A stretch of 28,818 bases of DNA, from assembly GCA_964598715.1 (NCBI GenBank), contig CAZRDA010000001.1, positions 1-28,818 of the forward strand, given 5' to 3'. This document shows, in pieces, positions 3,599 through 22,376 of this stretch (positions are counted from its first letter, which is position 1; every line of letters starts with the position of its first letter). Below the pieces are notes generated by a model, which saw nothing but the letters and a program-made list of their open reading frames with translations, ran no database searches and was not told the origin of the DNA. The DNA is from an uncultured bacterium (GTDB lineage: Bacteria; Methylomirabilota; Methylomirabilia; Methylomirabilales; JACPAU01). The translations under genes and the position numbers were made by a program.

Positions 3599-5032
3599 CT
3601 AGCGCTGGGCCTCCAGGGCATCGAAGTATCGCTTGACCTGCTCCCGGTAGTCGGGGGGGATCGCTTCCTTGGTGAGGGCCTCCTCCATCATCTGCCGGTA
3701 GCGGGTCAGCACCTGGGTGTGGGGGAGGCGGGAGGCGCCCCGGTCCCCGCGGCCCACCACGTTGGTGTTGTAGGACTCGCTCGGGCCGTCCCGCACCTGG
3801 CCCCGGAGCCCGGTATCCACGCCCTCGCCGCGCAGGCGCGGCGTGGCGCGCCCGCGGGTGCCGGGGGAGGGGCCGGTCCCGGGCAGGGAGCCCGCGTCCC
3901 CCATCCCCTCGAAGTCCATTCCAAAGCCATCGAGACCCTCCGACCCCTCCTCGGCCCCCGGCGGAGGCAGGCGGCCGGGCCCCTCCAGATCTCGCCTGCC
4001 CCGGCCCCCGCCACCGTCCCGATCGCGGAGGCGGGAGAGGGCCCGGTCGAGGTTCCGGAGGGCCTCCTCCCGGGTGCCGCTCATCCCCCCCTCCGGGTCG
4101 CCCGAGAAGTCATCGGCGTACAGCCCGCTCCCGCCGCGCCTCCCCATCCGGTCAATCTCCGACAGGAGGCGCCGCAGTTCCTCGGCGGAGAGATCCTTCA
4201 GGGACCGCTCCCCGAGCGTCTCCCGCATCCGGCCCACGGCCACCTGGTAGGGCGTACGGGTGAAGCCCTGCTTCAGGTCGGGGATGGAGTCCGGCTTTCC
4301 GAGCAGCTTGAGCCGCTCATCCCCTTCCCTGATGAAGGAGCCGAAGTCGGGCCGCCGGCCGGAGAGGGGAGTATCGCGGAATTCGGCCGCGCCCTCGCCG
4401 CCGACATGGGTGGGCGGGACGAAGGTCTGGCTCATCCCCCGGTCGCGCGGTCTTGCAGCCTCGGCCAGGGCCGGCGGCTCTGCCCGGGGGGGCTGGGGGA
4501 TCCTGCGCTCCGGGAGCGGCTCCTCGCCCCCGGCCGCCGGAACTCCCGGAGCCTCCGCCGGGGCCGGCCGATCCCAGAGAAGGGGCGGAAGGGCGAGCAG
4601 AAGGAGCGCGGCGGCGAGGGCAGCGCTTGCCCAGGCGAAATCCCGGACGGGCAGCCTGAGAGGAAGGGCCCGGCGGACGTCCGGAATGATGGCCGCCGTT
4701 TCAGCCAGCGCGAGCAGTTCCGCCGCGCTCCGGGCCTGGCGACGGGAAAGCTCGACACCGGTGGCCAGGCGATCCTCCAGGTCGAGGCGGGCATCCAGGA
4801 GGCGGGCCGCATCAAAGGCGTCGAGCCGCAGCAGCAGGCCCACGACGAACCCCCCGATGAGGCCAAGCGTGCCCAGGGCTCCCAGCAGGAGCGGGGGCGA
4901 AAGAGGCAGGAGGCTGCGGGCCAGAACGAGCGGGAGACTAAGGAAGAGGCAGCAGGCGAGCCCGCGAACAGCCAGCCGCAGCCCCCGGAGGACCCGGATG
5001 CGCCAGCGGGCTCTTCCCAGGGTATCCCACAT
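3599..5032 (-). CDS. Conserved hypothetical membrane-anchored protein (DUF4175/TIGR02302-like architecture)
   Basis: ATG at 5032 overlaps the mnmA stop (ATGA). N-terminal hydrophobic helices, AARLLDARLDLEDRLATG motif, Gly/Pro-rich middle, C-terminal EEALTKEAIPPDYREQVKRYF, typical of proteins in DUF58/VWA clusters. Family name is tentative. Confidence 0.7.
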   Translation of the reverse strand: MWDTLGRARWRIRVLRGLRLAVRGLACCLFLSLPLVLARSLLPLSPPLLLGALGTLGLIGGFVVGLLLRLDAFDAARLLDARLDLEDRLATGVELSRRQARSAAELLALAETAAIIPDVRRALPLRLPVRDFAWASAALAAALLLLALPPLLWDRPAPAEAPGVPAAGGEEPLPERRIPQPPRAEPPALAEAARPRDRGMSQTFVPPTHVGGEGAAEFRDTPLSGRRPDFGSFIREGDERLKLLGKPDSIPDLKQGFTRTPYQVAVGRMRETLGERSLKDLSAEELRRLLSEIDRMGRRGGSGLYADDFSGDPEGGMSGTREEALRNLDRALSRLRDRDGGGGRGRRDLEGPGRLPPPGAEEGSEGLDGFGMDFEGMGDAGSLPGTGPSPGTRGRATPRLRGEGVDTGLRGQVRDGPSESYNTNVVGRGDRGASRLPHTQVLTRYRQMMEEALTKEAIPPDYREQVKRYFDALEAQR

Positions 5033-6153
5033 CAGCCTGCACCCTCCGCATGCGGAGAGCGGCCGAGCCACGCGCGCCGGATCAGTCCACCCCCTACGAC
5101 CAGGTCCGGGTCCTCCGCCTCGTAGAAGGCGGCAACCTGGCCCGGCGACACCGCCTGGACAGGCTCTTCGAACCGGACGATCACCGTCCCTGCCTCCCCT
5201 GGCAGCAGGATGGCGGGGCGGGGGGGCTGGCGGTGGCGGGTGCTCGCCAGGGCGCGCCGTGGGCCCGGAAGCCGCTCGAAGGGGATGAACGTTGCCCCCC
5301 CCACCTCCACCGTATCCACCAGCAGGTCTTCGGCCTCCCCCACGGTCACCGCGTTTTGTTCCGCGTCGAGCGCAACGACGAAGCGGGGCGGCCCGCCCCC
5401 GAGGCCCAGACCCCGGCGCTGCCCGACCGTGTAGGCGGCGATGCCGCGGTGCTCCCCCAGGATGCGGCCCGCACGGTCGCGGATAGGACCGGGTCGCGCC
5501 GCCTCCGGCGCCCGCTCCTCCAGGAAGGCCCGGTAATCGTTCCCGGGCACGAAGCAGATCTCCTGGCTCTCATCCTTCTCGGCCACCGGCAGCCCGCGGG
5601 CGGCGGCCAGGGCGCGGACCTCGTGCTTCTGGAGGTCTCCCACGGGCATCAGCGCGCGCGATAGCTGCGCCTGCCCCAGGCCGCAGAGAAAGTACGACTG
5701 GTCCTTCCGCCGATCCGCCGCGCGCCGGAGCAGGGCGCGCCCGGTGGCGGGGTCGCGCCCGATGCGCGCGTAGTGCCCGGTGGCGAGCTTCTCGGCCCCC
5801 AGCCGCCGCGCGGCGGCGAGGAGCGAGCCGAACTTCACGTGCTGGTTACAGGCGAAGCACGGGTTCGGCGTGCACCCCGTGAGGTAGGCGGCCGTGAAGG
5901 GCGCGATGACCGTCCGGTCGAAGGTGGCCTCATGGTTCAGCACGAAGTGGGGGATGCCGAGGAGGCGCGCGGTGAGGCGGGCGTCGTCCGCGTCCCGTGC
6001 GGTGCAGCAGCCGCGGGTGAGAGTGCCGCTCCCGTCGCGAGGGGCAAGGCGGAGGGTCACCCCCACCACCTCGTAGCCCGCCTCCTTGAGCAGGGCAGCG
6101 GCGACGGCCGAATCCACGCCCCCGCTCATCGCCGCCACGACCCGCTCGGCCAT
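5032..6153 (-). CDS. mnmA: tRNA-specific 2-thiouridylase MnmA
   Basis: AMSGGVDS PP-loop, TPNPCFACN, ATGHYAR, KDQSYFL, SQEICF, YTVGQRRGLG, PGQ motifs. Confidence 0.96.
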   Translation of the reverse strand: MAERVVAAMSGGVDSAVAAALLKEAGYEVVGVTLRLAPRDGSGTLTRGCCTARDADDARLTARLLGIPHFVLNHEATFDRTVIAPFTAAYLTGCTPNPCFACNQHVKFGSLLAAARRLGAEKLATGHYARIGRDPATGRALLRRAADRRKDQSYFLCGLGQAQLSRALMPVGDLQKHEVRALAAARGLPVAEKDESQEICFVPGNDYRAFLEERAPEAARPGPIRDRAGRILGEHRGIAAYTVGQRRGLGLGGGPPRFVVALDAEQNAVTVGEAEDLLVDTVEVGGATFIPFERLPGPRRALASTRHRQPPRPAILLPGEAGTVIVRFEEPVQAVSPGQVAAFYEAEDPDLVVGGGLIRRAWLGRSPHAEGAG

Positions 6154-6165
6154 TCGCCCCTTTCC

Positions 6166-6561
6166 TTACTCGGCCGGCCCGCTCTCCCCCGACTTCGGCG
6201 CCGTGCCCGGCTCGGGCTCGACCATGAGACACGTCCCGTTGAAAACCGCCCCTTCGGTGATGATGAGCGACGGGGTCGTGATGTTCCCGGAGACCACGCT
6301 GGATGCCAGGAGCTCCACCCGCTTCATGGCCCGGATATTCCCCACGATGCGGCCGCTGTTCACGACGGTCCCGACTTCCACCTCCGCCTTGAGGAGGCCG
6401 GGCTCCCCAACGATGAGAAGGTCGTCCCCGACCACCTCGCCCTCCACGTGGCCGTCAATCCGGACCGTTCCCTGGAAGGAAAGAACCCCCCTGAACTCGG
6501 TTCCCTCACCGAGGAACGCTTTGATCTCTGCCGGCTTCACCGGCCCCCGGTTCTTTCCCAC
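6166..6561 (-). CDS. Bactofilin (polymer-forming cytoskeletal protein)
   Basis: FLGEGTEFRGVLSFQGTVRIDGHVEGEV...IVG...V.SGRIVGNI....VEL...SVVSGNITTPSLIITEGAVFNG: the beta-helix repeat pattern of bactofilins. Confidence 0.9.
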   Translation of the reverse strand: MGKNRGPVKPAEIKAFLGEGTEFRGVLSFQGTVRIDGHVEGEVVGDDLLIVGEPGLLKAEVEVGTVVNSGRIVGNIRAMKRVELLASSVVSGNITTPSLIITEGAVFNGTCLMVEPEPGTAPKSGESGPAE

Positions 6562-6618
6562 GGACAGCGCGCGATCCCTCCGGTGCGGGCGAGGTAACTC
6601 TAGTGAAAATCGCGCGTT

Positions 6619-6647
6619 ACGCTACCACGGTTCCCCTGAACTGTCAA
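6619..6647 (-). promoter_or_regulatory. sigma70-type promoter for the bactofilin-mnmA operon
   Basis: Minus strand TTGACA-17 bp-TAGCGT with extended -10 TGG. Confidence 0.75.
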
Positions 6648-6791
6648 ACGCGCGTCGGCGGAGCCACCGCGCGGTCCTGCCAGAGGAGAGGCCATCGTCT
6701 TGAGCGATTGACGGCGGGTCCGGGGGAGGCGAAGGGGGCGTGCAGCGGAGCCTGCGGGGCCGGCGAGCGCCGGCGGTTCCTCGGCCCAGCG

Positions 6792-7037
6792 CTAGGCGCC
6801 GGGTGCGCTCTTCAGGCGCTCGCGAAGGAACCGCAGCAGGCGATCCTCCAGCTCCGGTGGAATATCCTCGCAGGCAACCTCACGGATGAGGCGGGTCGTG
6901 GTCCGGTAGGTCTTGAGGAAGTTCAGGCACGGGGGGCAGTCGGTGAGGTGCTGATCGAGGTCGCGGGCCACTTCGGGCGAAAGCTGGCCCTCGAGGTAAT
7001 CGGCCAGGAGGTCAACCAGCTCCTTGCAACTTCTCAT
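6792..7037 (-). CDS. Soluble zinc-binding anti-sigma factor (zf-HC2/ZAS)
   Basis: C.ELVDLLADYLEGQL...QHLTDCPPC (HxxxCxxC); 81 aa, no TM segment; ATGA-coupled to the sigma gene. Confidence 0.88.
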   Translation of the reverse strand: MRSCKELVDLLADYLEGQLSPEVARDLDQHLTDCPPCLNFLKTYRTTTRLIREVACEDIPPELEDRLLRFLRERLKSAPGA

Positions 7038-7648
7038 GCCCGCGGCCCCCCGGCCTCGACGTACGTCGCCAGCCGCTCCCGGAGGGCGAGGCGCGCCCGG
7101 TGCAACCGGGATTTGACCGCCAGGACCGTAGCCCCGAGAACCTCCGCCACCTCCTGATTCGAGAGGCCCTCGATGTCCCGGAGGACCACCGCCGCCTTGT
7201 AGTCCGGCGGGAGGGCCGCGATCGCGTCCTGCACGACCCGCCGGCGCTCGGCGGCGAGGAGCCGATCCTCCGGCACCTCCGACCAGTCGGCCACCGGCCG
7301 GGCGTGATGGCCGTCCGCGGCGAAGGCGGGCCCTGCCTCCTCGATGGAGAGATGCTGCCCGCCCGGGCGCGCCCGGAGCTTCATCAGGGCGGCGTTGGTG
7401 GCGATCCGATACAGCCAGGTGCTCAAGGCCGCCCGCCCGTCGAAGTCGCCGATCTTCCGGTACACGGCCAGGAAGACATCCTGCGTGGCCTCCTCCGCAT
7501 CCTGCGCGTTGCGCGTTATGTTCATCGCCAGGCGGTAGACCTTCCCCTGGTACCGCTTCAGGAGCGCCGCGAAGGCCTCCTCGTCCCCGCGCCTCAGGCG
7601 CTCCACCAGCGCGGCGTCCCCCGCGTGCCTCCCGGTCGTGAGCGCCAT
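7034..7648 (-). CDS. ECF RNA polymerase sigma-70 family factor
   Basis: Region 2 DAEEATQDVFLAVYRKIGDFDGRAALSTWLYRIATN; region 4 LSNQEVAEVLG....VKSRLHRARLALR. Confidence 0.93.
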   Translation of the reverse strand: MALTTGRHAGDAALVERLRRGDEEAFAALLKRYQGKVYRLAMNITRNAQDAEEATQDVFLAVYRKIGDFDGRAALSTWLYRIATNAALMKLRARPGGQHLSIEEAGPAFAADGHHARPVADWSEVPEDRLLAAERRRVVQDAIAALPPDYKAAVVLRDIEGLSNQEVAEVLGATVLAVKSRLHRARLALRERLATYVEAGGPRA

Positions 7649-7704
7649 CGGGCCCGACCCCTCTCCCCGACCCCCCGCGCCTCCTCCACCCGCGTGCGGG
7701 GGCG

Positions 7705-8559
7705 CTACGCGAGCGGCTCGCCGGAGATGGCCTCCACCACGCGCGTCAGGTCCTCGTCAGAGAAATAGTGCACCTCAATCCGGCCGCCCACCCCCGCCGG
7801 GATGATCGCCACCTTGGTCGCCAGGCGCTGCCGCAGCCGGTCCTCCAGGGCGCGCAGGTTGGGGGAGAGGCGGGGTCCGGGGAGCCTCCCGCGGACCGGT
7901 CTGGGTCTGAGGCGGCGGACGAGACTCTCGGCCGCCCGGACTGTGAGCCCCTGCTTGACGATCTGCTCGCGCAAGCGGAGCTGCTCCGAAGCCTCCTCCA
8001 CAGCCAACAGGGCCCGGGCATGGCCGGCCGTGAGCACGCCCGCCGTCAGGTCCTCCTGAATCCTGGTGGGCAAACGGAGGAGGCGGAGGGCGTTGGCCAC
8101 AGAGGAGCGGTCCCGGCCGACCCGCCGGGCCACCTCCTCTTGGCTGAGGCCGAAATCCTCGGTGAGCCTCCGGTACACCTCCGCTTCTTCGATGGGATTG
8201 AGGTCCTCGCGCTGGATGTTCTCGATCAGCGCCAGCGCCAGCATCTCACTGTCGCTGACCTCTTTGATGATGGCCGGGATAGTTGCGATTCCTGCCAGTC
8301 TCGCTGCTCTGTGGCGGCGCTCGCCTGCGACAAGTTCATACCCGTCTTGTGTTTGGCGCAGGATCACCGGGGCGAGAACCCCGTGGGAGCGGATTGAGGC
8401 CGCGAGTTCTTTTAACTTTTCGTCATCAAAGGTTTTCCTAGGCTGAAAGCTCGACGATCGGATCGAATCCAGAGGGATCTGTCGAATCCCGCGCTCCTCT
8501 GCGGCCCCGCTAGGAATCAGGGCCTCAAGCCCCCGACCGAGCGCCTGGCGCTGGGCCAT
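7705..8559 (-). CDS. parB: Chromosome partitioning protein ParB/Spo0J
   Basis: LGRGLEAL N-terminal peptide, QPRK.F, GERRHRA CTPase motif, IENIQREDLNPIEEA, HTH SQEEVARRVGRDRSSVANALRLL. Confidence 0.96.
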   Translation of the reverse strand: MAQRQALGRGLEALIPSGAAEERGIRQIPLDSIRSSSFQPRKTFDDEKLKELAASIRSHGVLAPVILRQTQDGYELVAGERRHRAARLAGIATIPAIIKEVSDSEMLALALIENIQREDLNPIEEAEVYRRLTEDFGLSQEEVARRVGRDRSSVANALRLLRLPTRIQEDLTAGVLTAGHARALLAVEEASEQLRLREQIVKQGLTVRAAESLVRRLRPRPVRGRLPGPRLSPNLRALEDRLRQRLATKVAIIPAGVGGRIEVHYFSDEDLTRVVEAISGEPLA

Positions 8560-9310
8560 TGATCACCTCCTCGGCTAGACTGAGATACGCCTCCGCACCG
8601 GCAGACCTGATGTCGTAGAGCAGGATGGGCTGCCCGAAGCTCGGTGCCTCACTCAAGCGGATGCTCCTCGGGATGACCGCTGAGAAGACCTTGCCCGGAA
8701 AGTTTCTCCGCACATTCTCGACGACCTGTCGGGCAAGGGTCAGCCGCCCGTCATACATCGTCAGAAGCCCCCCCTCAATCGCCAGATCGGGGTTTAGGCC
8801 CATCCGGACGAGCCGTATCGTCTCCAGGAGCCGCCCCAGCCCCTCGAGAGCATAGTACTCGCACTGGATCGGGATGAGCACCGAGTGCGCCGCCGTAAGT
8901 CCGTTCAGGGTCATCAATCCAAGGGAGGGCGGACAGTCCAGCAGGATAAAATCGTACTCGGACGCGACATCCGCGAGAGCATGCTTCAGGAGGAACTCCC
9001 TCCCGGACCTTCCGACCAGCTCTACTTCAGCGCCGATGAGATCGGGCCTGGACGGAAGCACCGAAAGAGCTTGGAGGGCGGTCTTCTGAATGGCATCTCT
9101 GGCCCGGGCCTTCCCAATCAGGACCTCGTAGATGCTGGGCCCTCCGAAGTCCTTCGGGATTCCAGCACCCGATGTGCCATTCGCTTGGGGATCCAGATCC
9201 ACGAGGAGGGTGTTCCTCTCGGCGACAGCCAGAGAGGCTGACAGGTTGACTGCCGTCGTGGTTTTGCCGACGCCCCCCTTTTGGTTGGCCACGGCGATGA
9301 CGCGAGCCAC
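8525..9310 (-). CDS. parA: Chromosome partitioning ATPase ParA/Soj
   Basis: Deviant Walker A NQKGGVGKTTT, DLDPQ.N, DCPPSLG, IPIQCEYYALEG, IPRSIRLSEAPSFG. Confidence 0.96.
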   Translation of the reverse strand: MARVIAVANQKGGVGKTTTAVNLSASLAVAERNTLLVDLDPQANGTSGAGIPKDFGGPSIYEVLIGKARARDAIQKTALQALSVLPSRPDLIGAEVELVGRSGREFLLKHALADVASEYDFILLDCPPSLGLMTLNGLTAAHSVLIPIQCEYYALEGLGRLLETIRLVRMGLNPDLAIEGGLLTMYDGRLTLARQVVENVRRNFPGKVFSAVIPRSIRLSEAPSFGQPILLYDIRSAGAEAYLSLAEEVINGPAPGARSGA

Positions 9311-9363
9311 TTAGACCCCTTTCGAGGGGGTCATGGGTGCGATCAGTCTACTTGATTTATGAG

Positions 9364-9392
9364 ACCCTAGCACAGTCCAGCCGGACCGCCAA
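9364..9392 (-). promoter_or_regulatory. sigma70-type promoter for parAB
   Basis: Minus strand TTGGCG-17 bp-TAGGGT with extended -10 TGC. Confidence 0.6.
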
Positions 9393-9418
9393 GAAAAAGC
9401 AGCGGCAGATGTCGGGTG

Positions 9419-9434
9419 CGTTTCACGTGAAACA
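9419..9434. promoter_or_regulatory. parS site 1 (1 mismatch)
   Basis: CGTTTCACGTGAAACA versus consensus TGTTTCACGTGAAACA. Confidence 0.88.
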
Positions 9435-9495
9435 CGAGTCTTCTTGGTGGACCCAGACAACTGCAATCTTTCTGGAAGAGGGGGGAGAAGGGAAG

Positions 9496-9511
9496 TGTTT
9501 CACGTGAAACA
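9496..9511. promoter_or_regulatory. parS site 2 (perfect, inside a 26-bp palindrome at 9491-9516)
   Basis: GGAAG-TGTTTCACGTGAAACA-CTTCC. Confidence 0.93.
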
Positions 9512-9542
9512 CTTCCACTTGACGAACCAAGCGGACCCCAGG

Positions 9543-10247
9543 CTATGAGGGCAGCGAAGCGGGATATGTTTCACGTGAAACATCCGGTCCCCTAATCACG
9601 GCCACGGTATCTTCCGGGAGGAGTGATGTGCCGGGAAGAGTCCTAAATTCAATGCCATGGAAGGCCTGCTGGGGCCAACTAGGTGGCAGCTCCTTCCTCT
9701 TGCCTTGAAGGAGTAGGAGTGAGCCGCTCGGGGCAAGTAGCGGGGTTAGGAGGGCAATCGCCTCTGGCAGGGGTGCCAGGGCCCGTGCGGCCACTACGTC
9801 AAAGGCTCCCCGAATGCCGGGCTCGTCGCGGAGAACCTCGACCCGGCCCCGCAGACAGACGATCCCCTCCAGCCCGAGAAGCCGGATCGAATGCGACAGG
9901 AATGACGCCCGGCGCCTGGAGGCCTCGATGAGGGTGACCCGCAGATCCGGTCTCGCCACCTTGAGGGGAATCCCGGGGAACCCTGCGCCGCTTCCAACGT
10001 CGGCCAGGCCGATCCTGTCCCCCTCCGGCAGGAGGGGTAGCAGCCTCAGAGAGCGAAGGATCCCCTCTCGGACGATCTGCTCAGGCTCTCTGAACCCGGT
10101 GATGTTGACCCGCTGCCTCCAACGAGCGACTTCGGCCGCGTACGCGAGGAGTTGCTGGATGGCCCTTTCCCCCAGGGAGACACCGATCTCTGCCAGGCCC
10201 TGGTCCAACAGTGCCCGCAAAGCCGATCCGCTCACCCCCGCCCCCAC
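9543..10247 (-). CDS. rsmG: 16S rRNA m7G527 methyltransferase RsmG (GidB)
   Basis: RWRQRVNITG, SAM motif DVGSGAGFPGIPL, TLIEASRRRASFL, GRVE, FDVVAARAL; canonical position upstream of parA; GGAGG SD upstream. Confidence 0.93.
   Translation of the reverse strand: MGAGVSGSALRALLDQGLAEIGVSLGERAIQQLLAYAAEVARWRQRVNITGFREPEQIVREGILRSLRLLPLLPEGDRIGLADVGSGAGFPGIPLKVARPDLRVTLIEASRRRASFLSHSIRLLGLEGIVCLRGRVEVLRDEPGIRGAFDVVAARALAPLPEAIALLTPLLAPSGSLLLLQGKRKELPPSWPQQAFHGIEFRTLPGTSLLPEDTVAVIRGPDVSRETYPASLPS
9567..9582. promoter_or_regulatory. parS site 3 (perfect, inside rsmG coding sequence)
   Basis: TGTTTCACGTGAAACA; translated within rsmG as D-VSRET-Y. Confidence 0.9.
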
Positions 10248-10343
10248 ACGAGTCCCCCCTCCCGGAGCGGGGACACCTTGACGGGCCCGGGGAGCAGGAA
10301 GGCCCGGTCCGAGAGGGCAACGGGTTCGCGGGCCATGGGGCCG

Positions 10344-11993
10344 CTAGGCCTCTGCTGCCGTCGGCTTTTGGGGGAACCGGTTCATGTAGTACTGGTGGCC
10401 GATCTGGAGAACGTTGCTCGCCAGCCAGTAGAGGACGAGGCCGGAGGGGAAGCCCCAGAACATGAAGGTAAAGAGGATGGGCATCATGTACAGCATCATC
10501 TGGGCCTGGCGGGGGTCGCCGGCCGTGGGGGTCATCTTCTGCTGGATGAACATGCTGGCCCCCATGAAGAGGGGCAGGACGCGGACCGCGAGCCCCTCCC
10601 CGACAAACGGGACCGCGAACGGAAGGACAAAGAGGGCATCCGGCACCGAGAGATCATCAATCCAGAGGATGAAAGGGGCCCGCCAGAGCTCTACCGAGTT
10701 GCCCAGGGCGTTGTAGAGGGCGATAAAAATCGGGATCTGGATCAGCATCGGGAGACACCCCCCCAGTGGGTTCACCCCGTGGCGCTTGTACAGTTCCATG
10801 GTCTCCTGGTTCATCTTCTGGGAGTTGTTCTTGTGCCGCTCCCGGATGGCGGCCACCTTGGGCTGCAGCATCTGCATCGCCTGCATGGACTTCAGGCTCT
10901 TCTGGGTCAGCGGGAGGAACGCCACCTTCTGGAGGAGAGTAATAATCAAAATCACAACGCCGTAGTTCCCCGTGTAGCGGTACAGGAACTTCATGAGGTA
11001 GAGGGCCGGCCGGGCCAAGAAGTCGAACCACCCCAAATCCACCAGTTGCTCTAGGTCCCGCCCCGCCTCCCGCAGCCGCTCCACCTCCTTCGGGCCGCCG
11101 AAGAAGTCCAGCGTCACCACCCGCTGGGTCCCCGCCGGCAGCGCCGTCCCGGCGAAGCGCAGGGTCGCGATCGGCCGATCTCCGGACCCCTTCCCGAAAG
11201 CCGCAGCCGGGCTCCCCCCCGACGGGACCAGCGCCGCAGCGAAGTAGGTGTCCTGGACTGCGGCCCAGGCCACCTCGCCCTTCTGGACCGCTTCCTCCTT
11301 GAGTTCGCTCACGTCCTCCGTGACCCGCTTGCCCCCCACCAGCGCCACCGCCTGGGGCTCCTGCCCTGCCGCCGCTTTCGCCGTCCCCCGGAAGCCCGGC
11401 CCCCACGCCACTCGAAGGTTGGGCGTCACTGCCCCGGCGCCCGCGTTGAGGAGGCGCAACTCCAGGGCCGCGTGGTATCTGCCGGGCTGAAGGGTGAACT
11501 GCCTCTCCAGGACCAGCCCGCTCTCCTCGACAGACCGGAAGGTCACCGCCTGGGCCTCGCCCGGCCCCTCACCCGACCGCTTCACGACCTCTAAGAGCTG
11601 GTCAGGGCCGAGTCCCCCCTCGACCCATGCCGCCAGGGAGAGCGGCGGCTCGTCGGGGCCGGAGGCGGGGGCCAGGTCAACAGGCCGCCCCGCCTCATCG
11701 GTGTACTGCTTGATCCGCCAGGCGCGTACGGTCCCGCCACGGTTCGTCAGGGTGACCTGCAGCAGATCGGTCTCCAGGTGAATCTGCTCTTCCCGCACTG
11801 GCCGCGCGACGCGCACCGGCGGGCGAGCCCCCCCAGGGGAAGGCCCGGGCTTCGGGGCCGCCGCCTCGGGCACTACCGGGGCTTCGGAGGACTTCTCTTC
11901 CTTCTGGCGGGGCGCTGGGGAGACAAATACCAGTTGGTAGACAAGCAGGATCAACACCGCCAGGGCGCTCGCCAGAAGGGCGCGCTTTTCCAT
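10344..11993 (-). CDS. yidC: Membrane protein insertase YidC
   Basis: Start set at MEKRALL (ATG 11993). N-terminal TM and periplasmic domain, then NYGVVILIITLL, PL...S.KSM..MQ.LQP, NPLGGCLPMLIQIPIF, PSGLVLYW..SN. Confidence 0.95.
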   Translation of the reverse strand: MEKRALLASALAVLILLVYQLVFVSPAPRQKEEKSSEAPVVPEAAAPKPGPSPGGARPPVRVARPVREEQIHLETDLLQVTLTNRGGTVRAWRIKQYTDEAGRPVDLAPASGPDEPPLSLAAWVEGGLGPDQLLEVVKRSGEGPGEAQAVTFRSVEESGLVLERQFTLQPGRYHAALELRLLNAGAGAVTPNLRVAWGPGFRGTAKAAAGQEPQAVALVGGKRVTEDVSELKEEAVQKGEVAWAAVQDTYFAAALVPSGGSPAAAFGKGSGDRPIATLRFAGTALPAGTQRVVTLDFFGGPKEVERLREAGRDLEQLVDLGWFDFLARPALYLMKFLYRYTGNYGVVILIITLLQKVAFLPLTQKSLKSMQAMQMLQPKVAAIRERHKNNSQKMNQETMELYKRHGVNPLGGCLPMLIQIPIFIALYNALGNSVELWRAPFILWIDDLSVPDALFVLPFAVPFVGEGLAVRVLPLFMGASMFIQQKMTPTAGDPRQAQMMLYMMPILFTFMFWGFPSGLVLYWLASNVLQIGHQYYMNRFPQKPTAAEA

Positions 11994-12028
11994 GTCGCCC
12001 ACGGGGGGCCTCCGCAGCCGGCGCCGCT

Positions 12029-12259
12029 CTACGGGACGGGGTCGAACCCGGAATCCCCGAATGGGTGACACCGGAGGAGCCGCCGCACGGCCAGCCAGCC
12101 TCCCCGCCAGAGACCCCGCCGCTCGAGCGCTTCGCGGGCGTACGAGGAGCAGCTCGGCAGGAAGCGGCACGCCGCGGGAAGGGTCGGGGAGAGGAAGGCC
12201 TGGTAGGCGCCGATGAAGCCGGCGGCGGCTCTAGCGGGCAGGCGTCTGAGGCGGAGCAC
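12029..12259 (-). CDS. yidD: Membrane protein insertion efficiency factor YidD
   Basis: YQ.FLSP....CRF.PSCSSYA.EAL...[21 protein letters not shown]; GTG start at 12259. Confidence 0.92.
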
Positions 12260-12641
12260 GCCTCGTCCCTCCCGCGGCGGCGGCCGCGGCGGCGGCCCGG
12301 ACGGCCTCGGCAACAGCACGGCCAAGGGCAGCGCCCATGACGCCACCCAGCGCCCTGGTGGCCACGGCGACGAGGTCCGTGCCGGGCGGGAATGCGCTGC
12401 GGTGCTGGCGGAACTGCTCGCGCAAGAGCCGCTTGACGCGGTTGCGAAGGGCCGCGCCGCCGACGCGCCGCCCCACAGTCAAGCCGAGACGCACCGCTTC
12501 CCCCTCGCCCCGGGCGACATGGAGGACGAACGGCCCCGAGCTGAGGCGCCGCCCGATCCGGAGGGCGCGGGCAAGATCCGCCCCCCTGAGAATCCGGGCG
12601 GCCCTCGGGAAGCGGTTCTGCCCTCTCTGCGGGGGCCTCAG
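12231..12641 (-). CDS. rnpA: Ribonuclease P protein component (start uncertain, probably CTG)
   Basis: [33 protein letters not shown] (RNR motif). The conserved N-terminus lies upstream of the ORF-track GTG; the nearest plausible start is CTG at 12641 overlapping the rpmH stop. Confidence 0.88.
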
Positions 12642-12772
12642 ACCGTCAGGCGCCAGCGTCCCTTTGCCCGTCGGCGCTTGAGGACATTCCTCCCGCCCGG
12701 AGTGCTCATCCGCTTGCGAAATCCGTGCGTGCGTTTGCGCTTGCTCCGATCCGGCTGGTAGGTGCGTTTCAT
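12638..12772 (-). CDS. rpmH: 50S ribosomal protein L34
   Basis: [44 protein letters not shown] (44 aa, below the ORF-track cutoff). Confidence 0.97.
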
Positions 12773-12817
12773 CGCGCTCCCGGGGTGGGCCGCTCAGTCC
12801 TTGTACGACAAGCGGTT

Positions 12818-12846
12818 ACCTTAGCGGGGGTGGGCGGCACTGTCAA
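12818..12846 (-). promoter_or_regulatory. sigma70-type promoter for rpmH-rnpA-yidD-yidC
   Basis: Minus strand TTGACA-17 bp-TAAGGT. Confidence 0.8.
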
Positions 12847-13436
12847 GCGCAAAGCATGGGATGGCACCAGAAATCCATTGCGGCAGCCGGGGAGCCTATG
12901 CTATTTTTCGGAGCGAGCAGAGCAGCTTGAAATGCGTGTAATTACAGGGTTCTCGAGTGGCTGTCGCGAGCTCCTGGGGTGGTGCAGCGAAGGGGGGTCC
13001 GGGATTCCGCGGCGCGCGAGCCGTTATCCACAGATGTGGATAAGCGTGTGTGTAAGTCTTGGTCGAGCTAGGCCCAGTTTTTCATGGGGTTATGTCGGTG
13101 TCCACCAATGGGTGCCGCCGGAGAGCCTCGGACCAACCGAGGTGCGTTACCTGCCCTGTGGAGAAGCAGTGGGATTGCTCCCCACACAAGGGCCGCCAGG
13201 CGACGCTCGCATCGGGCAGCACTTGTGTTCACAGCGTTGGTTGTGTTAGGTCGGTGTGAATCCACAGATCATTCCAAGACGCACCGCGGCTCGCGACCTG
13301 GCTCTTCTCCTGTTCTGCACAGGAGTCACAAGACTAGTGGTACTACGACTCCTTTTTGAGATAATCATGGAATGAGGAGTGGAATGAGGAGTGGGGTGCT
13401 CACAACTTTGCGGATGAGGGAAGCGAGGCGCTAACA
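12847..13436. other. Putative oriC (rpmH-dnaN intergenic region, no dnaA)
   Basis: Gene-strand switch point, GC visibly lower than the flanks, two perfect DnaA boxes plus degenerate ones, trio-like tract before dnaN, parABS nearby. Confidence 0.7.
13024..13043. promoter_or_regulatory. Inverted pair of perfect DnaA boxes
   Basis: TTATCCACA-GA-TGTGGATAA. Single-mismatch boxes at 13157-13165 (TGTGGAGAA) and 13313-13321 (TTCTGCACA). Confidence 0.85.
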
Positions 13437-14540
13437 ATGCATATTCGGGTTCAGCGAGGGGATTTTCTCTCCACGCTTGCTCAGGTCCAAGGGGTAGTGG
13501 AGGCGAAAAAAACACTCCCAATCCTCTCCCATCTTCTTTTGGAGGCGGGCGAGGGTGGCCTGAATGTATTCGGCACCGACCTCGACGTGGGGATCCGGAG
13601 CGCGACACCCGCCGAGATTCTGACCCCCGGGGCCATCGCCCTCTCCGCAAAGAAACTGTACGAGATCATGCGGGAACTCCCGGAGGCTCCCGTAGACTTG
13701 CGGGTCCAAGAGGAGCTCACCGCGGAGATCATCTGCCAGCGCTCACGGTTCAAACTCAAAGGTCTCCCCATAGACGAGTTCCCAGCGCGGCCGGTGATTC
13801 CAGCGGAGGGAGGCCTTGGCATGTCTCCCGAGACGCTGCGGAGCATGATCCAGCGGACAGCGTTCGCGGTCTCGACAGACCAGACCCGCTACACCCTCAC
13901 CGGCGCGCTGCTGCAGGTGACATCGGAAGAGGCACGAATGGTCGCCACCGACGGCCACCGGCTTGCGGTGGCCCGCGCGCCGCGAGACCGGGTGACGGGG
14001 AACGGCCTGACCGAGGCCCTCCTGCCTCGCAAGGCGCTCCTGGAGGCCTCAAAAGCCCTGCGCGAGGACGGCGAGGATGTCCGCCTGGTGCCCGTCGGGA
14101 ACCAGGTGGCCTTTGACCTGGGGCCCACGCTCCTCATCTGCCGACTCATCGAGGGGCAGTTTCCCAACTATCAGCAAGTTCTGCCGGCGGCGCAGGGGCG
14201 GGGGCTGACAGTGAAGAAGGAGGAGCTCGTGGGGGCTCTGAAGCGAACCTCCACCATTATCGGGGACCGGACGGCGCCCACCGTGTTCGACTTCCGGCGC
14301 GGCCGCCTCACGGTCTCGTGCGTCAACCTGGACCTGGGCGAGGCGCGGGAGGAGGTGGAGGTCCAGCACGCAGAGAAGGACCTGACCGCGGGCTTTAACG
14401 CCCGCTACGTCCTGGACTTCCTCGGGGTGGTGGACGAGGCGGAGGTGAGCATCCATCTCAACGATGCGCTGAGCCCGGCACTCTTCCGGCCCCTCCAGGG
14501 GCAGGACTACAGCTGCGTCATCATGCCGATGCGCCTGTAG
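13437..14540 (+). CDS. dnaN: DNA polymerase III beta sliding clamp
   Basis: TLPILSHLLL, GTDLDV, TDQTRYTLTG, VATDGHRLA, RLIEGQFPNYQQV, GFNARYVLDFL, C-terminal VIMPMRL. Confidence 0.97.
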   Translation: MHIRVQRGDFLSTLAQVQGVVEAKKTLPILSHLLLEAGEGGLNVFGTDLDVGIRSATPAEILTPGAIALSAKKLYEIMRELPEAPVDLRVQEELTAEIICQRSRFKLKGLPIDEFPARPVIPAEGGLGMSPETLRSMIQRTAFAVSTDQTRYTLTGALLQVTSEEARMVATDGHRLAVARAPRDRVTGNGLTEALLPRKALLEASKALREDGEDVRLVPVGNQVAFDLGPTLLICRLIEGQFPNYQQVLPAAQGRGLTVKKEELVGALKRTSTIIGDRTAPTVFDFRRGRLTVSCVNLDLGEAREEVEVQHAEKDLTAGFNARYVLDFLGVVDEAEVSIHLNDALSPALFRPLQGQDYSCVIMPMRL

Positions 14541-14562
14541 GGCGCGGCGGAACCGCGGGCGC

Positions 14563-18137
<3,575 letters not shown>

Positions 18138-18155
18138 CCGCGCGAGGACGGGGTA

Positions 18156-20708
18156 ATGCCCGAGGAGATCCGGGGTCAGGGCACACCACCGCCGGTGCAG
18201 CCGTTGCGCGGGATCGGCGAGGTCCGCCCCATCGACATCCACGAGGAGATGCGGCGGTCGTATCTCGATTACGCGATGAGCGTGATCATCGGGCGGGCGC
18301 TCCCCGATGTCCGGGACGGGCTGAAGCCGGTCCAGCGGCGCATCCTGTACGCCATGTGGGAGAACGGGCTGCGGCCCGGCGCCCGGTTGCGGAAGTCGGC
18401 GGCCGTCGTCGGGGAGGTGCTGAAGAGTTTCCACCCCCACGGCGATGTCGCGGTCTACGACACCATGGTCCGCTTGGTGCAGGACTTCTCCCTCCGGTAC
18501 CCCCTGATCGAGGGGCAGGGGAACTTCGGCTCCGTGGATGGGGACGCGGCGGCGGCCTACCGGTACACGGAGGTGAGGCTGGCGCGAATCGCCCAGGAGA
18601 TGCTGGCAGACATCGAGAAGGACACGGCGGACTTCGTCCCGAACTTCGACGAGACCCTTCTGGAGCCCACCGTGCTCCCGGGCCGCCTCCCGAACCTCCT
18701 GGTGAACGGCGCCACGGGGATCGCGGTGGGGATGGCGACCAACATCCCCCCCCACAACCTGGGTGAGATCCTGGACGGCGCCCTGCTTCTGCTGGAGGAC
18801 CCGGAGACCTCGCTCGAGGCGCTGATGGAAAAGGTCCAGGGGCCGGACTTCCCCACGGGGGCGATCATCAACGGGCGGGGCGGCATCCTGGAGGCCTACC
18901 GGACCGGTCGGGGTCTCATCCAGATGCGGGCCCGGGCGGGCAAGGAGCCGGTCCGGGGCGGCAAGGAGAACATCATCATCTCGGAACTCCCGTTCCAGGT
19001 GAACAAGGCGAAACTGATCGAGCGGATCGCCGAGTTGGTCCGGGAGCGGAAGGTCGAGGGGATCGCGGACCTGCGGGACGAGTCCGACCGGGAGGGGATG
19101 CGGATTGTCCTCGAACTCAAGCGGGACGAGGACGCCCGGCCGATTCTGAACCAACTGTACCGCTATACGGCCATGCAGTCCACCTTCGGGGTGATCATGC
19201 TGGCGCTGGTGGACAACCAGCCCAAGGTCTGCACGCTGCGGGAGCTGCTCCAGCACTTCCTCCAGCACCGGCGGGACGTGGTGGTCCGCCGGACCCGCTT
19301 CGAGCTGCGCAAGGCGGAGGAGCGGGCCCACATCCTGGAGGGGTACCGGATGGCCCTGGACCGTCTGGACGAGGTCATTACCCTCATCCGGAACGCTCCA
19401 ACCGTTGACGAGGCCCGCGTCGGTCTGGTGCAGCGCTTCGGCATGAGCGTGATCCAGGCCCAGGCCATCCTGGATCTCCGATTGCAGCGCCTCACGGGCC
19501 TCGAGCGCCAGAAGATCCTGGAGGAGTACCGCGAGGTGCTCCAGACGATCGAAAGGCTGCGGGCGATCCTCCAGAGCGAGGGCCTCCTGCGCCAGCTCAT
19601 CCGAGAGGAACTCGTCGCGCTGAAGGATCAGTACGCGGACCAGCGCCGGACCGCGATCCTGGAGGAGCAGCCAGAGCTTCAGTTCGAGGACCTCGTGGCG
19701 GACGAGGAGATGGTCATCACCGTCTCTCACCAGGGGTACGTCAAGCGCAGCCCGCTCGGCATCTACCGGGCGCAGCGGCGGGGCGGGAAGGGCTCGACCG
19801 GCATGGTGACGAAGGAGGAGGACTACGTCGAGCACCTCTTCGTGGCCTCTACCCACTCCTCCCTGCTGTTCTTCACGGACCGGGGGAAGGTCCACTGGGT
19901 GAAAGTCCACGAGGTCCCCCAGGCTGGCCGGGCGGCCAAGGGGAAGGCGGCCGTGAACCTCTTGGAGCTCGAGCCGGGGGAGACGATCACCACGCTGATC
20001 CCGATCCGCAAGGTCGAGGTCGGCCGCTACCTCATGATGGCCACGCGGCGGGGGATCGTGAAGAAGACGGAACTGGCGGCATACGGGAACCCCCGGGCCG
20101 CCGGCATTATCGCGCTGACGTTAGACGAGGGAGACCGGCTGATCGCCGTCGAGTTGACCCGCGGGACGGACGAGGTCTTCCTCGGGACCCGGCAGGGGCA
20201 GGCCATCCGCTTCAAGGAGGAAGAGGCCCGGCCGATGGGCCGAACCGCGCGCGGGGTGATCGGGATCTCCCTCGAGGAGGGGGATGAGGCGGTGGGGATG
20301 GAGATCGTCTCCGAGGGGGCGACGATTCTCACGGTGACGGAGCGGGGCTACGGCAAACGGTCCGACCTCGGTGAGTACCGGCTCCAGGGGCGGGGCGGGA
20401 AGGGGATCATCAATATCCGCGTGACGGAGAAGAACGGTCCGGTGGTCGGCGTCAAGAAGGTGACCGACGAGGACGGCCTGATGATGATCTCCCAGGAGGG
20501 GAAGATCACCCGGCTGAACGTGCGGGACGTGAGCGTCATCGGGCGGGCCACGCAGGGGGTCCGGCTGCAGGGGCTGGAGGCCGGCGACCGGGTGGCGGAC
20601 ATCACGCGCCTCGTCACCGAGGAGGTGGAGGAGAACGGCGGGGGGCCGACCCCTGCGGGCGGGCCGGGGGAGCCTCCCGAGGCTGCGGAGGGTCCCGCCT
20701 CGGCTTGA
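18156..20708 (+). CDS. gyrA: DNA gyrase subunit A
   Basis: [24 protein letters not shown], catalytic Tyr in RYTE (18564-18566), GyrA-box QRRGGKG, beta-pinwheel repeats. Confidence 0.98.
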
Positions 20709-20733
20709 CCGTCCCCCGGGCCGGTGCTAGGGT
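20705..20733 (+). promoter_or_regulatory. sigma70-type promoter for serS/tRNA cluster, overlapping the gyrA stop
   Basis: TTGACC-17 bp-TAGGGT with extended -10 TGC. Confidence 0.7.
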
Positions 20734-20759
20734 ATTCCCCCTTTGGGGGTGGGACTGGC

Positions 20760-22034
20760 GTGCTGGATCCGCGGATCATCCGGGAGAAGCCGGAGTGGCT
20801 CCGGCAGAAGGTCAGGGATCGGGGCGTCCCGTTCGACGTGGATGGCCTGCTGAACCTGGAGGCGGAGCGGCGGCGCCTGCTCGCCGAACTGGAGCGCCTG
20901 CGGGCGCGCAAGAACGCCCTCTCAGAGGAGATCGGGAGGCGGAAGCGGGCCGGGCAGGACGCGGCGACGCTCGTGGCGGAGTCGGCCGGGATTGACCCGG
21001 CGCTGAAGGGGCTGACAGAGCAGCAGCGGAAGGCGCAGGAGCAGTTTGATGCGCTCCTCCTCATGGTCCCCAATCTCCCCCACGATTCGGTGCCGGTTGG
21101 GGCCGACCCGGCCGCAAACCGGGAGGTCCGGCGGTGGGGGAAGCCACGGGAACTCGCCTTTACGCCAAAGCCACACTGGGAGCTGGGGGAGGCGCTGGGG
21201 ATCCTGGACTTCGAGCGGGGGGCGCGGCTGGCCCAGACCCGCTTCGCCGTCCTGACGGGGGCGGGCGCGAGGCTCGAGCGTGCGCTGATGAACTTCATGC
21301 TGGACCTGCACACCCGGGAACACGGCTACACGGAAGCCGCTCCACCGCTCCTGGTGAACGCGGCCGCGATGACGGGCACGGGGCAACTGCCGAAGTTCGA
21401 GGAGGAACTGTTCAAGACCCAGGAGGGGCTCTACCTGATCCCGACAGCGGAAGTTCCCCTCACGAACCTGCACCGGGGGGAGATCCTGCCACCGGGCGCG
21501 CTGCCGAAAAAGTACACGGCCGCCACCCCGTGCTTCCGGCGGGAGGCCGGCTCCTACGGGAAGGACACCCGGGGCCTGATCCGCCAGCACCAGTTCAACA
21601 AAGTGGAGCTGGTCTGGTTCACGGAGGCGGGAGGGTCCTACGGGGCCCTGGAGCGACTGACCGCCGACGCCGAGGAGGTTCTGCGGCGCCTCGAACTGCC
21701 GTATCGGGTCGTCGCCCTCTCGACCGGGGATCTGGGGTTCGCGTCGGCCAAGACCTACGATCTGGAGGTCTGGCTGCCGGGGCACGGCGATTTCCGGGAG
21801 ATCTCCTCGTGCAGCAACTGCGAGGACTTCCAGGCGCGCCGGGCGGAGATCCGGTACCGCCCGCATCCGAAGGCCGTACCGGAGTATGCCCATACCCTGA
21901 ACGGCTCCGGGCTGGCGGTCGGGCGGACCTGGATCGCCCTCCTGGAGAACTTCCAGGAAGCCGATGGGAGCGTGACGATCCCGGATGCCCTGCGGCCCCA
22001 CCTGGACGGGGAGAAGCGTCTCGCGCCCCGGTAG
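20760..22034 (+). CDS. serS: Serine--tRNA ligase
   Basis: Start set at GTG giving MLDPRIIRE; [10 protein letters not shown], motif 2 [51 protein letters not shown]. Confidence 0.97.
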
Positions 22035-22371: not shown

Positions 22372-22376
22372 TTTGA

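What the first reader, a model, noticed from the sequence alone, without database searches (positions are those of the whole stretch)
12773..13436. Canonical origin locus without dnaA
rpmH and dnaN diverge across only ~660 bp; the ~1.35 kb dnaA gene normally found between them is absent, and no frame shows DnaA motifs (no Walker A or AAA+ remnant). DnaA boxes, the strand switch, parABS and dnaN-recF-gyrB-gyrA are all retained. This suggests dnaA was relocated, uncoupling it from oriC and leaving a compact continuous origin, or, less likely, initiation by another factor. A candidate rightward promoter (TTGCGG-18 bp-TGnTATTTT, 12878-12907) upstream of the box pair could make dnaN DnaA-regulated.
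Basis: partly seen in the sequence, partly recalled or inferred. Interest (0 to 1): 0.75.

Follow-up and report, generated by a model that had tools for sequence, protein, structure and literature searches.

The report
Chromosome origin whose dnaA gene is gone
In this NC10-group (Methylomirabilota) bacterium the gene for the replication initiator DnaA has been cleanly removed from its usual place at the chromosome origin, while the initiator's binding sites, the DNA-opening module and even the gene's old promoter stayed behind. It is a tidy lineage-wide rearrangement of a kind already known from cyanobacteria and a few other bacteria.

Summary
rpmH (12638-12772, minus strand) and dnaN (13437-14540, plus strand) are separated by 664 bp with no trace of dnaA. 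This is not a misassembly: about 30 independent NC10-type assemblies show the same layout.

The spacer has the anatomy of a DnaA-dependent origin.
- A perfect convergent DnaA-box pair plus a third box lies at 13024-13055.
- Further boxes follow downstream.
- A conserved box-spacer-DnaA-trio-AT-rich unwinding module lies at 13313-13379.

The same 32-nt box motif sits just upstream of dnaA in Rokubacteria- and Binatia-type genomes, and their dnaA-dnaN spacers carry the same unwinding module. So the window's spacer is the two ancestral flanks of dnaA fused together.

I could not locate dnaA elsewhere in these genomes. Conserved perfect boxes and a published check of circular MAGs argue that it exists.

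Origins linked to dnaN with dnaA elsewhere are already known (cyanobacteria, Sorangium). This is a new member of a known kind, of moderate interest.

The parts
12638..12772 (-). rpmH (ribosomal protein L34), left boundary of the origin spacer
   Evidence: Pfam Ribosomal_L34, E 1.7e-24
12818..12846 (-). Candidate rpmH promoter: -35 TTGACA (12846-12841), 17-nt spacer, -10 TAAGGT (12823-12818)
   Evidence: TTGACA-17/18-TAnnnT lies on this strand 30-48 nt from the rpmH start in 31 of 33 NC10-type loci. No transcript data.
12878..12907 (+). Presumptive ancestral dnaA promoter, now upstream of the boxes and dnaN.
   Evidence: Same pattern and spacing in L017 and L001, and in 46 of 47 Rokubacteria-type loci 137-212 nt upstream of the box motif. 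Shuffled controls: 1 of 940. Below the threshold of the generic sigma-70 scan.
13024..13055 (.). 32-nt DnaA-box motif: box TTATCCACA (13024-13032, +), box TTATCCACA (13035-13043, -), box-like TTACACACA (13047-13055, -)
   Evidence: Invariant in 13 aligned NC10 loci and present in all 15 genome loci. The same motif lies 34-75 nt upstream of dnaA in Rokubacteria-type loci and upstream of dnaA in Binatia-type loci.
13157..13165 (-). DnaA box with one mismatch (TTCTCCACA)
   Evidence: Boxes at equivalent positions in relatives.
13258..13266 (+). DnaA-box-like GAATCCACA (2 mismatches)
   Evidence: Conserved in L017.
13313..13321 (+). DnaA box of the unwinding module (TTCTGCACA, 2 mismatches)
   Evidence: Aligns with TTGTCCACG / TTATCCACG of 36 NC10-type loci and with the box before the trios in outgroup dnaA-dnaN spacers.
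13334..13351 (+). DnaA-trio run CTA GTG GTA CTA CGA CTC (complement 3'-GAT CAC CAT GAT GCT GAG-5'), 12 nt after the box
   Evidence: The first CTA is invariant across 13 loci. Pattern CTA NNN YTN CTN CTN CTA in 36 loci. Meets the box-spacer-trio definition quoted from PMC8287927.
13352..13379 (.). AT-rich stretch, candidate DNA-unwinding element
   Evidence: The lowest-GC 40-mer of the spacer is 13340-13379 (GC 0.40 in a ~70% GC genome). A T-rich run follows the trios in all relatives.
13437..14540 (+). dnaN (beta clamp), right boundary
   Evidence: Three DNA_pol3_beta domains.
9419..9582 (.). Three parS sites (9419-9434, 9496-9511, 9567-9582) between parA and rsmG
   Evidence: Two perfect and one 1-mismatch TGTTTCACGTGAAACA, against 0.01 expected.

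Best explanation
The 664-bp rpmH-dnaN spacer is most likely the chromosomal replication origin of an NC10-lineage (Methylomirabilota) bacterium. In an ancestor of this lineage the dnaA coding sequence was excised from the ancestral rpmH | dnaA-dnaN cluster, and the two non-coding flanks of dnaA were joined.

Shown:
- The left flank keeps divergent promoter-like elements for rpmH and for what used to be dnaA.
- It also keeps a high-affinity cluster of three DnaA boxes (13024-13055).
- The right flank keeps further boxes and a complete basal unwinding module: DnaA box 13313-13321, 12-nt spacer, DnaA-trios 13334-13351, AT-rich stretch to about 13379.

Inferred mechanism:
- DnaA, encoded somewhere else in the genome, binds the box cluster and the module's box.
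- It oligomerises onto the trios and opens the AT-rich stretch about 60-100 bp upstream of dnaN.
- The old dnaA promoter (12878-12907) now reads across the boxes and the origin into dnaN, so dnaN expression is probably DnaA-sensitive.
For: 1. Not an artefact, and lineage-wide.
- Fourteen NC10-type genome loci plus 19 metagenome loci contain both rpmH and dnaN, and none has DnaA within the DNA held, up to 10 kb each side.
- The rpmH-dnaN distance is 650-1400 nt, except in L011, L012 and L080; the excess in L011 and L012 is transposase insertions.
- Every outgroup locus with enough upstream sequence (13 of 15: Acidobacteriota, Binatia, a deltaproteobacterial MAG, Firmicutes) has dnaA directly upstream of dnaN.

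2. DnaA boxes.
- Two perfect boxes against 0.03 expected.
- Seven boxes with <=2 mismatches in the 664-bp spacer, about 15 times the density of the rest of the window.
- The TTATCCACA-NN-TGTGGA(A/T)AA-N3-TGTGTGTAA motif is invariant across loci whose DnaN is only 52-59% identical to the window's.

3. Fusion of the two flanks.
- A metagenome scan with the motif returned about 60 loci in which it lies between rpmH and dnaA, 34-75 nt before dnaA.
- Those DnaAs are named Candidatus Rokubacteria / Methylomirabilota bacterium. Others are Binataceae.
- Their dnaA-dnaN spacers carry box-spacer-trio-T-rich modules that match the dnaN-proximal part of the NC10 spacers.

4. The unwinding module fits the published definition (box with <=2 mismatches, spacer <=16 nt with a peak at 10-13, at least 3 NAN trios; PMC8287927). 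It is followed by the lowest-GC stretch of the spacer.

5. Surroundings fit an origin.
- parS x3 lies 3.5 kb away.
- Gene strand switches at the spacer.
- Local GC skew is negative to the left and positive to the right in most loci.
- The motif-to-dnaN distance is constrained (395-660 nt), while the rpmH-to-motif distance is free (213-935 nt, with insertions of about 1.6-7.1 kb).

6. Promoter: TTGCxx-18-TGnTAnnnT is conserved in the window clade and in 46 of 47 Rokubacteria-type loci, against 1 of 940 shuffles.

7. dnaA very probably exists. The perfect boxes and trios are under evident purifying selection. In addition, PMC12313526 states that dnaapler verified replication-initiator genes in all circular MAGs of the project that yielded the circular NC10 genome of L015.
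Against: - dnaA of this clade was not found. Three protein searches, one representative search and one cluster look-up did not reach it. Relocation is therefore inferred.
- No whole-genome skew or marker-frequency data were available. The local skew switch coincides with the switch in gene orientation, so it is weak evidence on its own.
- The module's box in the window has two mismatches, and one of six trios lacks the central A.
- The generic sigma-70 scan finds no promoter in the spacer. No transcription or binding data exist.
- The 140-190 nt by which NC10 spacers exceed the sum of the Rokubacterial flanks are unexplained.
Confidence: 0.8

Rival explanations
1. The spacer is a regulatory relic, not the active origin. 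When dnaA left, the functional origin went with it or arose elsewhere, as in E. coli, where oriC lies 42 kb from rpmH-dnaA-dnaN. On this view the boxes here only regulate dnaN and rpmH transcription or titrate DnaA.
For: - The boxes sit between conserved promoter-like elements and dnaN.
- In Methylomirabilales a perfect TTGACA-17-TGgTAAAAT promoter is followed at once by a DnaA box.
- No genome-wide skew or replication profile could be examined.
- The 32-nt motif also occurs in dense DnaA-box clusters away from rpmH, dnaA and dnaN in unidentified lineages (L108, L043, L111).
Against: - A complete box-spacer-trio-AT-rich unwinding module is conserved across 36 NC10-type loci at a constrained distance from dnaN. 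A purely regulatory site has no evident need for one.
- parS sites, the strand switch and the local skew switch all coincide here.
Confidence: 0.13
2. The clade has lost dnaA altogether. It initiates replication by another factor or mechanism, as some cyanobacteria and endosymbionts do.
For: - No DnaA was found within +/-10 kb in any NC10-type locus.
- My searches never reached one.
- Literature searches found no statement about dnaA in Methylomirabilis or NC10.
Against: [quoted passage not shown] That is hard to explain without a DnaA to bind them.
- A paper reports that initiator genes were verified by dnaapler in all circular MAGs of the set that includes the NC10 genome of L015.
Confidence: 0.03
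3. Assembly artefact: dnaA was collapsed or dropped from this contig.
For: None beyond the unusual gene order.
Against: The same dnaA-less junction, with the same internal landmarks, occurs in about 30 independently assembled contigs from many projects and technologies. One is a circular long-read chromosome (L015) and one a 699-kb contig (L004).
Confidence: 0.01

Closest known systems
Cyanobacterial oriC linked to dnaN, with dnaA elsewhere (Synechococcus elongatus, Anabaena, Microcystis and others)
   Same: The DnaA-box cluster and origin lie directly upstream of dnaN, dnaA is not adjacent, and the trait is lineage-wide. The authors themselves explain it by translocation of dnaA away from an ancestral dnaA-dnaN origin (PMC4009838; PMC2650636). 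The second box of the Methylomirabilales pair is even the cyanobacterial type, TTTTCCACA.
   Different: Here the rest of the ancestral cluster is intact (parB-parA-rsmG-yidC-yidD-rnpA-rpmH | dnaN-recF-gyrB-gyrA), so both old flanks of dnaA can be recognised. A sister group still has the unbroken arrangement with the same motif. In cyanobacteria the other neighbour of the origin is an unrelated gene, and some species are DnaA-independent.
Sorangium cellulosum predicted oriC (between a kinase gene and dnaN, not at dnaA)
   Same: A high-GC genome with its origin predicted next to dnaN and dnaA elsewhere (PMC2650636).
   Different: Sorangium boxes are degenerate (TTATCCCCC) and rpmH is not the neighbour. 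Here the boxes are perfect consensus and the rpmH side is retained.
Ancestral rpmH-[boxes]-dnaA-[boxes, DnaA-trios, AT-rich]-dnaN origin (Bacillus subtilis type, bipartite). Found here in Rokubacteria-, Binatia- and Acidobacteriota-type loci.
   Same: The same two non-coding modules in the same order and orientation: the same 32-nt box motif and promoter on the left (Rokubacteria-type loci), and the same basal unwinding module on the right (definition in PMC8287927).
   Different: The dnaA gene that separates the two modules is missing, so the origin is continuous instead of bipartite.
Escherichia coli arrangement (oriC separated from rpmH-dnaA-dnaN)
   Same: Initiator gene and origin are uncoupled on the chromosome (noted in PMC8287927).
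   Different: In E. coli the origin moved and dnaA stayed beside rpmH and dnaN. Here dnaA left and the origin elements stayed.

Membership tests
DnaA-dependent bacterial oriC with basal unwinding system (BUS; Pelliciari et al. 2021, PMC8287927) | Cluster of DnaA boxes in an intergenic region | tested here: met
   Two perfect boxes against 0.03 expected. Seven boxes with <=2 mismatches in 664 bp, against 20 in the other 28.1 kb. Conserved in all NC10 loci.
DnaA-dependent bacterial oriC with basal unwinding system (BUS; Pelliciari et al. 2021, PMC8287927) | DnaA box (<=2 mismatches) within 16 bp of at least three DnaA-trios (3'-NAN-5', GAT preferred next to the box) | tested here: met
   TTCTGCACA 13313-13321, then a 12-nt spacer, then CTA GTG GTA CTA (complement GAT CAC CAT GAT) and two further triplets. 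Conserved in 36 loci. Definition.
DnaA-dependent bacterial oriC with basal unwinding system (BUS; Pelliciari et al. 2021, PMC8287927) | AT-rich unwinding region next to the trios | tested here: met
   The lowest-GC 40-mer of the spacer is 13340-13379, GC 0.40. T-rich runs follow the trios in relatives.
DnaA-dependent bacterial oriC with basal unwinding system (BUS; Pelliciari et al. 2021, PMC8287927) | Nucleotide-skew switch at the site on the scale of the whole chromosome | tested here: inconclusive
   Only local sequence is available. The skew changes sign at the spacer in most loci, but so does gene orientation.
DnaA-dependent bacterial oriC with basal unwinding system (BUS; Pelliciari et al. 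2021, PMC8287927) | DnaA binding, DnaA-dependent unwinding, or autonomous replication of the fragment | not testable with these tools
   Needs experiment.
dnaN-linked origin with dnaA translocated (cyanobacteria / Sorangium type) | Origin elements directly upstream of dnaN and no dnaA adjacent | tested here: met
dnaN-linked origin with dnaA translocated (cyanobacteria / Sorangium type) | A dnaA gene present elsewhere in the same genome | tested here: inconclusive
   Not found with the capped searches. Indirect support comes from conserved boxes and trios, and from PMC12313526 on circular MAGs.
Bipartite origin (oriC1-dnaA-oriC2; B. subtilis, H. pylori) | Two box clusters separated by the dnaA gene | tested here: not met
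   Both clusters are present but contiguous. There is no dnaA or remnant of it between them.

The most novel reading that the evidence does not exclude
NC10-lineage bacteria have no DnaA at all. On this reading the deeply conserved consensus boxes and trios at the old origin are read by a different, unknown initiator, or serve only transcriptional control, and replication starts by a DnaA-independent route in a free-living, non-cyanobacterial lineage.
Probability: 0.03. Interest if true: 0.85.

Novelty: new member of a known kind. Interest (0 to 1): 0.35.

Why it matters
It adds a clean, datable example of how the oldest gene cluster in bacteria (rpmH-dnaA-dnaN) can lose its initiator gene while the origin keeps working. 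Three things make it useful.

- The unbroken state survives in Rokubacteria-type relatives with the same 32-nt box motif, promoter and unwinding module. The two halves of a bipartite origin can therefore be seen fusing into one.
- The beta-clamp gene appears to have inherited the autoregulated dnaA promoter, which reads through the origin.
- Practically, origin-finding and genome-rotation tools that anchor on dnaA will misplace the origin in NC10 genomes. rpmH|dnaN and the 32-nt motif are better anchors.

It does not change what is known about initiation mechanisms unless dnaA proves to be absent.

Tried and rejected
1. Looking for a dnaA remnant. tblastn with four outgroup DnaAs and a DnaA profile HMM against six-frame translations of the window and 13 related spacers found nothing.

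2. Finding the clade's dnaA.
- The search for homologous proteins with Vicinamibacteria, Binatia-type and Rokubacteria-type DnaA. The top-120 lists were saturated by close relatives (>=77% identity) and none was NC10 proper.
- The representative search with a Rokubacteria DnaA gave a star of representatives 44-57% identical with no way to assign them.
- One cluster look-up timed out. The next named Limnocylindrales and Mariprofundaceae. I judged further look-ups a lottery and stopped.
- I hoped the 32-nt motif would also mark a relocated dnaA. The motif-plus-dnaA loci without rpmH turned out to be Binatia and a GC ~0.5 lineage that still has dnaN next to dnaA.

3. The window's DnaN is not on record in the contig index, so the source contig could not be extended.

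4. Literature. There is nothing on dnaA or oriC in Methylomirabilis, NC10 or Rokubacteria. A Methylomirabilis comparative-genomics supplement held no gene table, and one paper was not held.

5. The long spacers of L011 and L012 as possible hiding places for dnaA were rejected. They are IS or transposon insertions.

6. The 174-aa ORF 12725-13249 across the spacer has no Pfam hit and no coding-type GC3 (0.59), so it is not a gene.

7. Rfam finds no known RNA in the spacer.

8. The generic sigma-70 and terminator scan of the spacer returned nothing. Promoter candidates rest on conservation instead.

Full report
WHAT IS THERE

The window has about 70% G+C. Pfam identifies the genes.
- Minus strand: parB 7705-8559, parA 8525-9310, rsmG 9543-10247, yidC 10344-12170, yidD 12029-12346, rnpA (from about 12231) and rpmH 12638-12772.
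- Plus strand: dnaN 13437-14540, recF 14563-15693, gyrB 15690-18137, gyrA 18156-20708, serS 20724-22034, and further on dnaX, ybaB and recR.

By third-position GC, every likely gene from 2691 to 12772 is on the minus strand and every one from 13437 to 28253 is on the plus strand. Three parS sites lie at 9419-9582, against 0.01 expected.

The rpmH-dnaN gap is 664 bp and has lower GC (0.59). There is no DnaA in it or anywhere in the window.
- tblastn with outgroup DnaAs gives nothing below E 0.05.
- A DnaA profile HMM against six-frame translations gives E 0.37 at best, and that hit is DnaX.

NOT AN ARTEFACT: A LINEAGE TRAIT

A scan of one genome per species with the window's DnaN returned 18 Methylomirabilota/NC10 loci and 15 outgroup loci.
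- In every NC10-type locus that holds both genes, rpmH and dnaN face away from each other across 650-1400 nt, and no DnaA is detectable within up to 10 kb on either side.
- Two longer spacers (L011, 7.6 kb; L012, 3.4 kb) contain transposase genes.
- The loci include a circular 5.65-Mb long-read chromosome (L015) and a 699-kb contig (L004).
- A metagenome scan added 19 more loci with the same layout.
- Every outgroup locus with enough upstream sequence (13 of 15: Acidobacteriota, Binatia, a deltaproteobacterial MAG, Firmicutes) has dnaA immediately upstream of dnaN.

ANATOMY OF THE SPACER

Two perfect DnaA boxes converge at 13024-13032 and 13035-13043, against 0.03 expected in the window. A third box-like element (TTACACACA on the minus strand) follows at 13047-13055. 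Seven boxes with at most two mismatches fall in the 664 bp, against 20 in the other 28 kb.

Alignment of 13 NC10 spacers shows that TTATCCACA-NN-TGTGGA(A/T)AA-NNN-TGTGTGTAA is invariant, although the DnaN proteins are only 52-59% identical.

Close to dnaN a second block is conserved in 36 loci. It consists of a DnaA box (TTGTCCACG and variants; TTCTGCACA 13313-13321 in the window), an 11-12-nt spacer, a triplet run CTA NNN YTN CTN CTN CTA (window 13334-13351, complement 3'-GAT CAC CAT GAT GCT GAG-5') and a T-rich stretch.

This block meets the published definition of the basal unwinding system: a box with at most two mismatches, a spacer of at most 16 nt with a peak at 10-13, and at least three NAN trios with GAT preferred next to the box (PMC8287927). 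The lowest-GC 40-mer of the spacer (13340-13379, GC 0.40) follows directly. Rfam finds no RNA family in the spacer.

WHERE THE PIECES CAME FROM

- There the motif lies 34-75 nt before the dnaA start.
- Their DnaAs carry the source names 'Candidatus Rokubacteria bacterium' and 'Methylomirabilota bacterium'.
- From my own knowledge, GTDB places Rokubacteriales in the phylum Methylomirabilota, while NCBI keeps Rokubacteria apart.
- Another set with motif-dnaA-dnaN is Binataceae, and a third set (GC about 0.5) is unidentified.
- Acidobacteriota and Firmicutes loci lack the motif.

The dnaA-dnaN spacers of these lineages (162-237 nt) carry textbook unwinding modules, for example CCTTATCCACAGCCCCTACTATTACTCCTTGATTTTATATATATA. 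These match the dnaN-proximal block of the NC10 spacers.

So the NC10 spacer is the ancestral rpmH-dnaA spacer joined to the ancestral dnaA-dnaN spacer, with the dnaA reading frame removed without a detectable remnant.

In NC10 loci the motif-to-dnaN distance is constrained (395-660 nt). The rpmH-to-motif distance varies from 213 to 935 nt, with longer spacers of about 1.6-7.1 kb in three loci, two of which hold transposase insertions. This suggests that the functional unit runs from the motif to dnaN.

PROMOTERS

On the minus strand, TTGACA (12846-12841), 17 nt, TAAGGT (12823-12818) is a candidate rpmH promoter. The pattern is present in 31 of 33 NC10 loci.

It fails a generic sigma-70 scan, but it is conserved.
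- The same pattern and spacing occur in L017 and L001.
- They also occur in 46 of 47 Rokubacteria-type loci, 75-79 nt from rpmH and 137-212 nt upstream of the motif. Shuffled controls give 1 of 940.

In Rokubacteria this is the only conserved promoter-like element upstream of dnaA. It is therefore most simply the autoregulated dnaA promoter, with the boxes in its leader. In the window it survives and now points across the boxes and the origin at dnaN.

Methylomirabilales lack it. They have instead a perfect TTGACA-17-TGgTAAAAT promoter between the motif and the unwinding module, immediately followed by a DnaA box.

All promoter assignments are inferences from conservation.

HOW IT MOST LIKELY WORKS

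Shown: the sequence elements, their conservation and their homology to the two flanks of dnaA.

Inferred:
- DnaA made from a gene elsewhere binds the triple box and the downstream boxes.
- It oligomerises from the 13313 box onto the trios and melts the AT-rich stretch 60-100 bp before dnaN.
- Forks then leave in both directions, co-oriented with the genes on either side.
- ParB-parS, 3.5 kb to the left, segregates the new origins.
- dnaN is probably transcribed from the retained dnaA promoter, and therefore damped when DnaA occupies the boxes.

IS dnaA REALLY ELSEWHERE?

I could not find it. The word-indexed protein search lists only the best 120 hits, and for DnaA these are always close relatives of the query. 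The representative search gave a star of lineages 44-57% identical with no labels. One cluster look-up timed out, and a second named other phyla.

Two things argue that dnaA exists.
- The consensus boxes and trios are invariant over deep divergence.
- The paper describing the project that produced the circular NC10 genome of L015 says that dnaapler verified replication-initiator genes in all circular MAGs (PMC12313526).

I put total loss of dnaA at about 3%. A more serious rival (about 13%) is that the active origin moved away with dnaA and the spacer is a regulatory relic. The conserved unwinding module, parS, the strand switch and the local skew speak against it, but only a whole-genome skew or coverage profile can settle it.

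COMPARISON WITH WHAT IS KNOWN

Origins that sit next to dnaN with dnaA elsewhere are the rule in cyanobacteria and are predicted in Sorangium. The translocation explanation has been proposed for them (PMC4009838; PMC2650636). E. coli shows the reverse uncoupling.

The present case works like these and like the Bacillus-type unwinding system. It differs in three ways: the whole remaining cluster is intact, both ancestral flanks and the old dnaA promoter are recognisable, and relatives with the unbroken arrangement carry the same motif.

I found no paper describing this for NC10, but origin databases probably already list a dnaN-adjacent origin for M. oxyfera (my expectation, unverified).

VERDICT

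This is a new member of a known kind, of moderate interest.

Noticed in passing
window 12231-12640 (minus strand): The conserved N-terminal part of RnpA (…[33 protein letters not shown]…) is in frame and open upstream of the first canonical start (GTG 12494), and it runs into the rpmH stop. There is no ATG, GTG or TTG in that stretch in the window, L017 or L001. So rnpA probably starts at a non-canonical codon or is translationally coupled to rpmH.
   Followed up: partly
L003-L016 versus window 14563-15693: recF lies between dnaN and gyrB in the window clade (window, L001, L002, L018). It is missing from that position in Methylomirabilales loci, where dnaN and gyrB are only about 290 nt apart. 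This is a second erosion of the ancestral cluster.
   Followed up: no
L011 2384-10000; L012 6040-9428: Transposable elements are inserted between rpmH and the DnaA-box motif. L011 has a Mu-transposase C-domain ORF, a weak AAA+ helper and a UPF0236 ORF. L012 has a DDE_Tnp_1 transposase. The origin side from the motif to dnaN is untouched.
   Followed up: yes
L004-L016, about 300-350 nt upstream of dnaN (alignment A1 columns ~235-275): Methylomirabilales have a near-perfect sigma-70 promoter, TTGACA-17-TGgTAAAAT, between the box motif and the unwinding module, immediately followed by a DnaA box (TGTGGATAA in some). It is absent from the window clade.
   Followed up: partly
L108 (~7016), L043 (~3080), L111 (~446), L059 (~524), in motif-forward orientation: The same 32-nt motif sits in dense clusters of DnaA boxes on contigs (GC 0.62-0.66) that show no rpmH, dnaA or dnaN. 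The lineage and role are unknown.
   Followed up: no
window 22053-23963: Four tRNA-Ser genes (anticodons tga, gct, cga, gga) and one tRNA-Arg (acg) cluster directly after serS.
   Followed up: no
window 24531-27582: SRP RNA (24531-24797) is followed by dnaX, ybaB and recR, so a second block of replication and recombination genes lies within 14 kb of the origin.
   Followed up: no
window 13368-13391: There is an exact tandem duplication TGGAATGAGGAG x2 just after the AT-rich stretch. It is absent from the closest relatives L017 and L001, so it is recent.
   Followed up: no
proteins P0363, P0367 (representative search): Two proteins of 1876 and 1990 aa carry a stretch 47-48% identical to the AAA+ core of Rokubacteria DnaA (query residues 104-355). 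This is an unusual DnaA-like fusion of unknown source.
   Followed up: no
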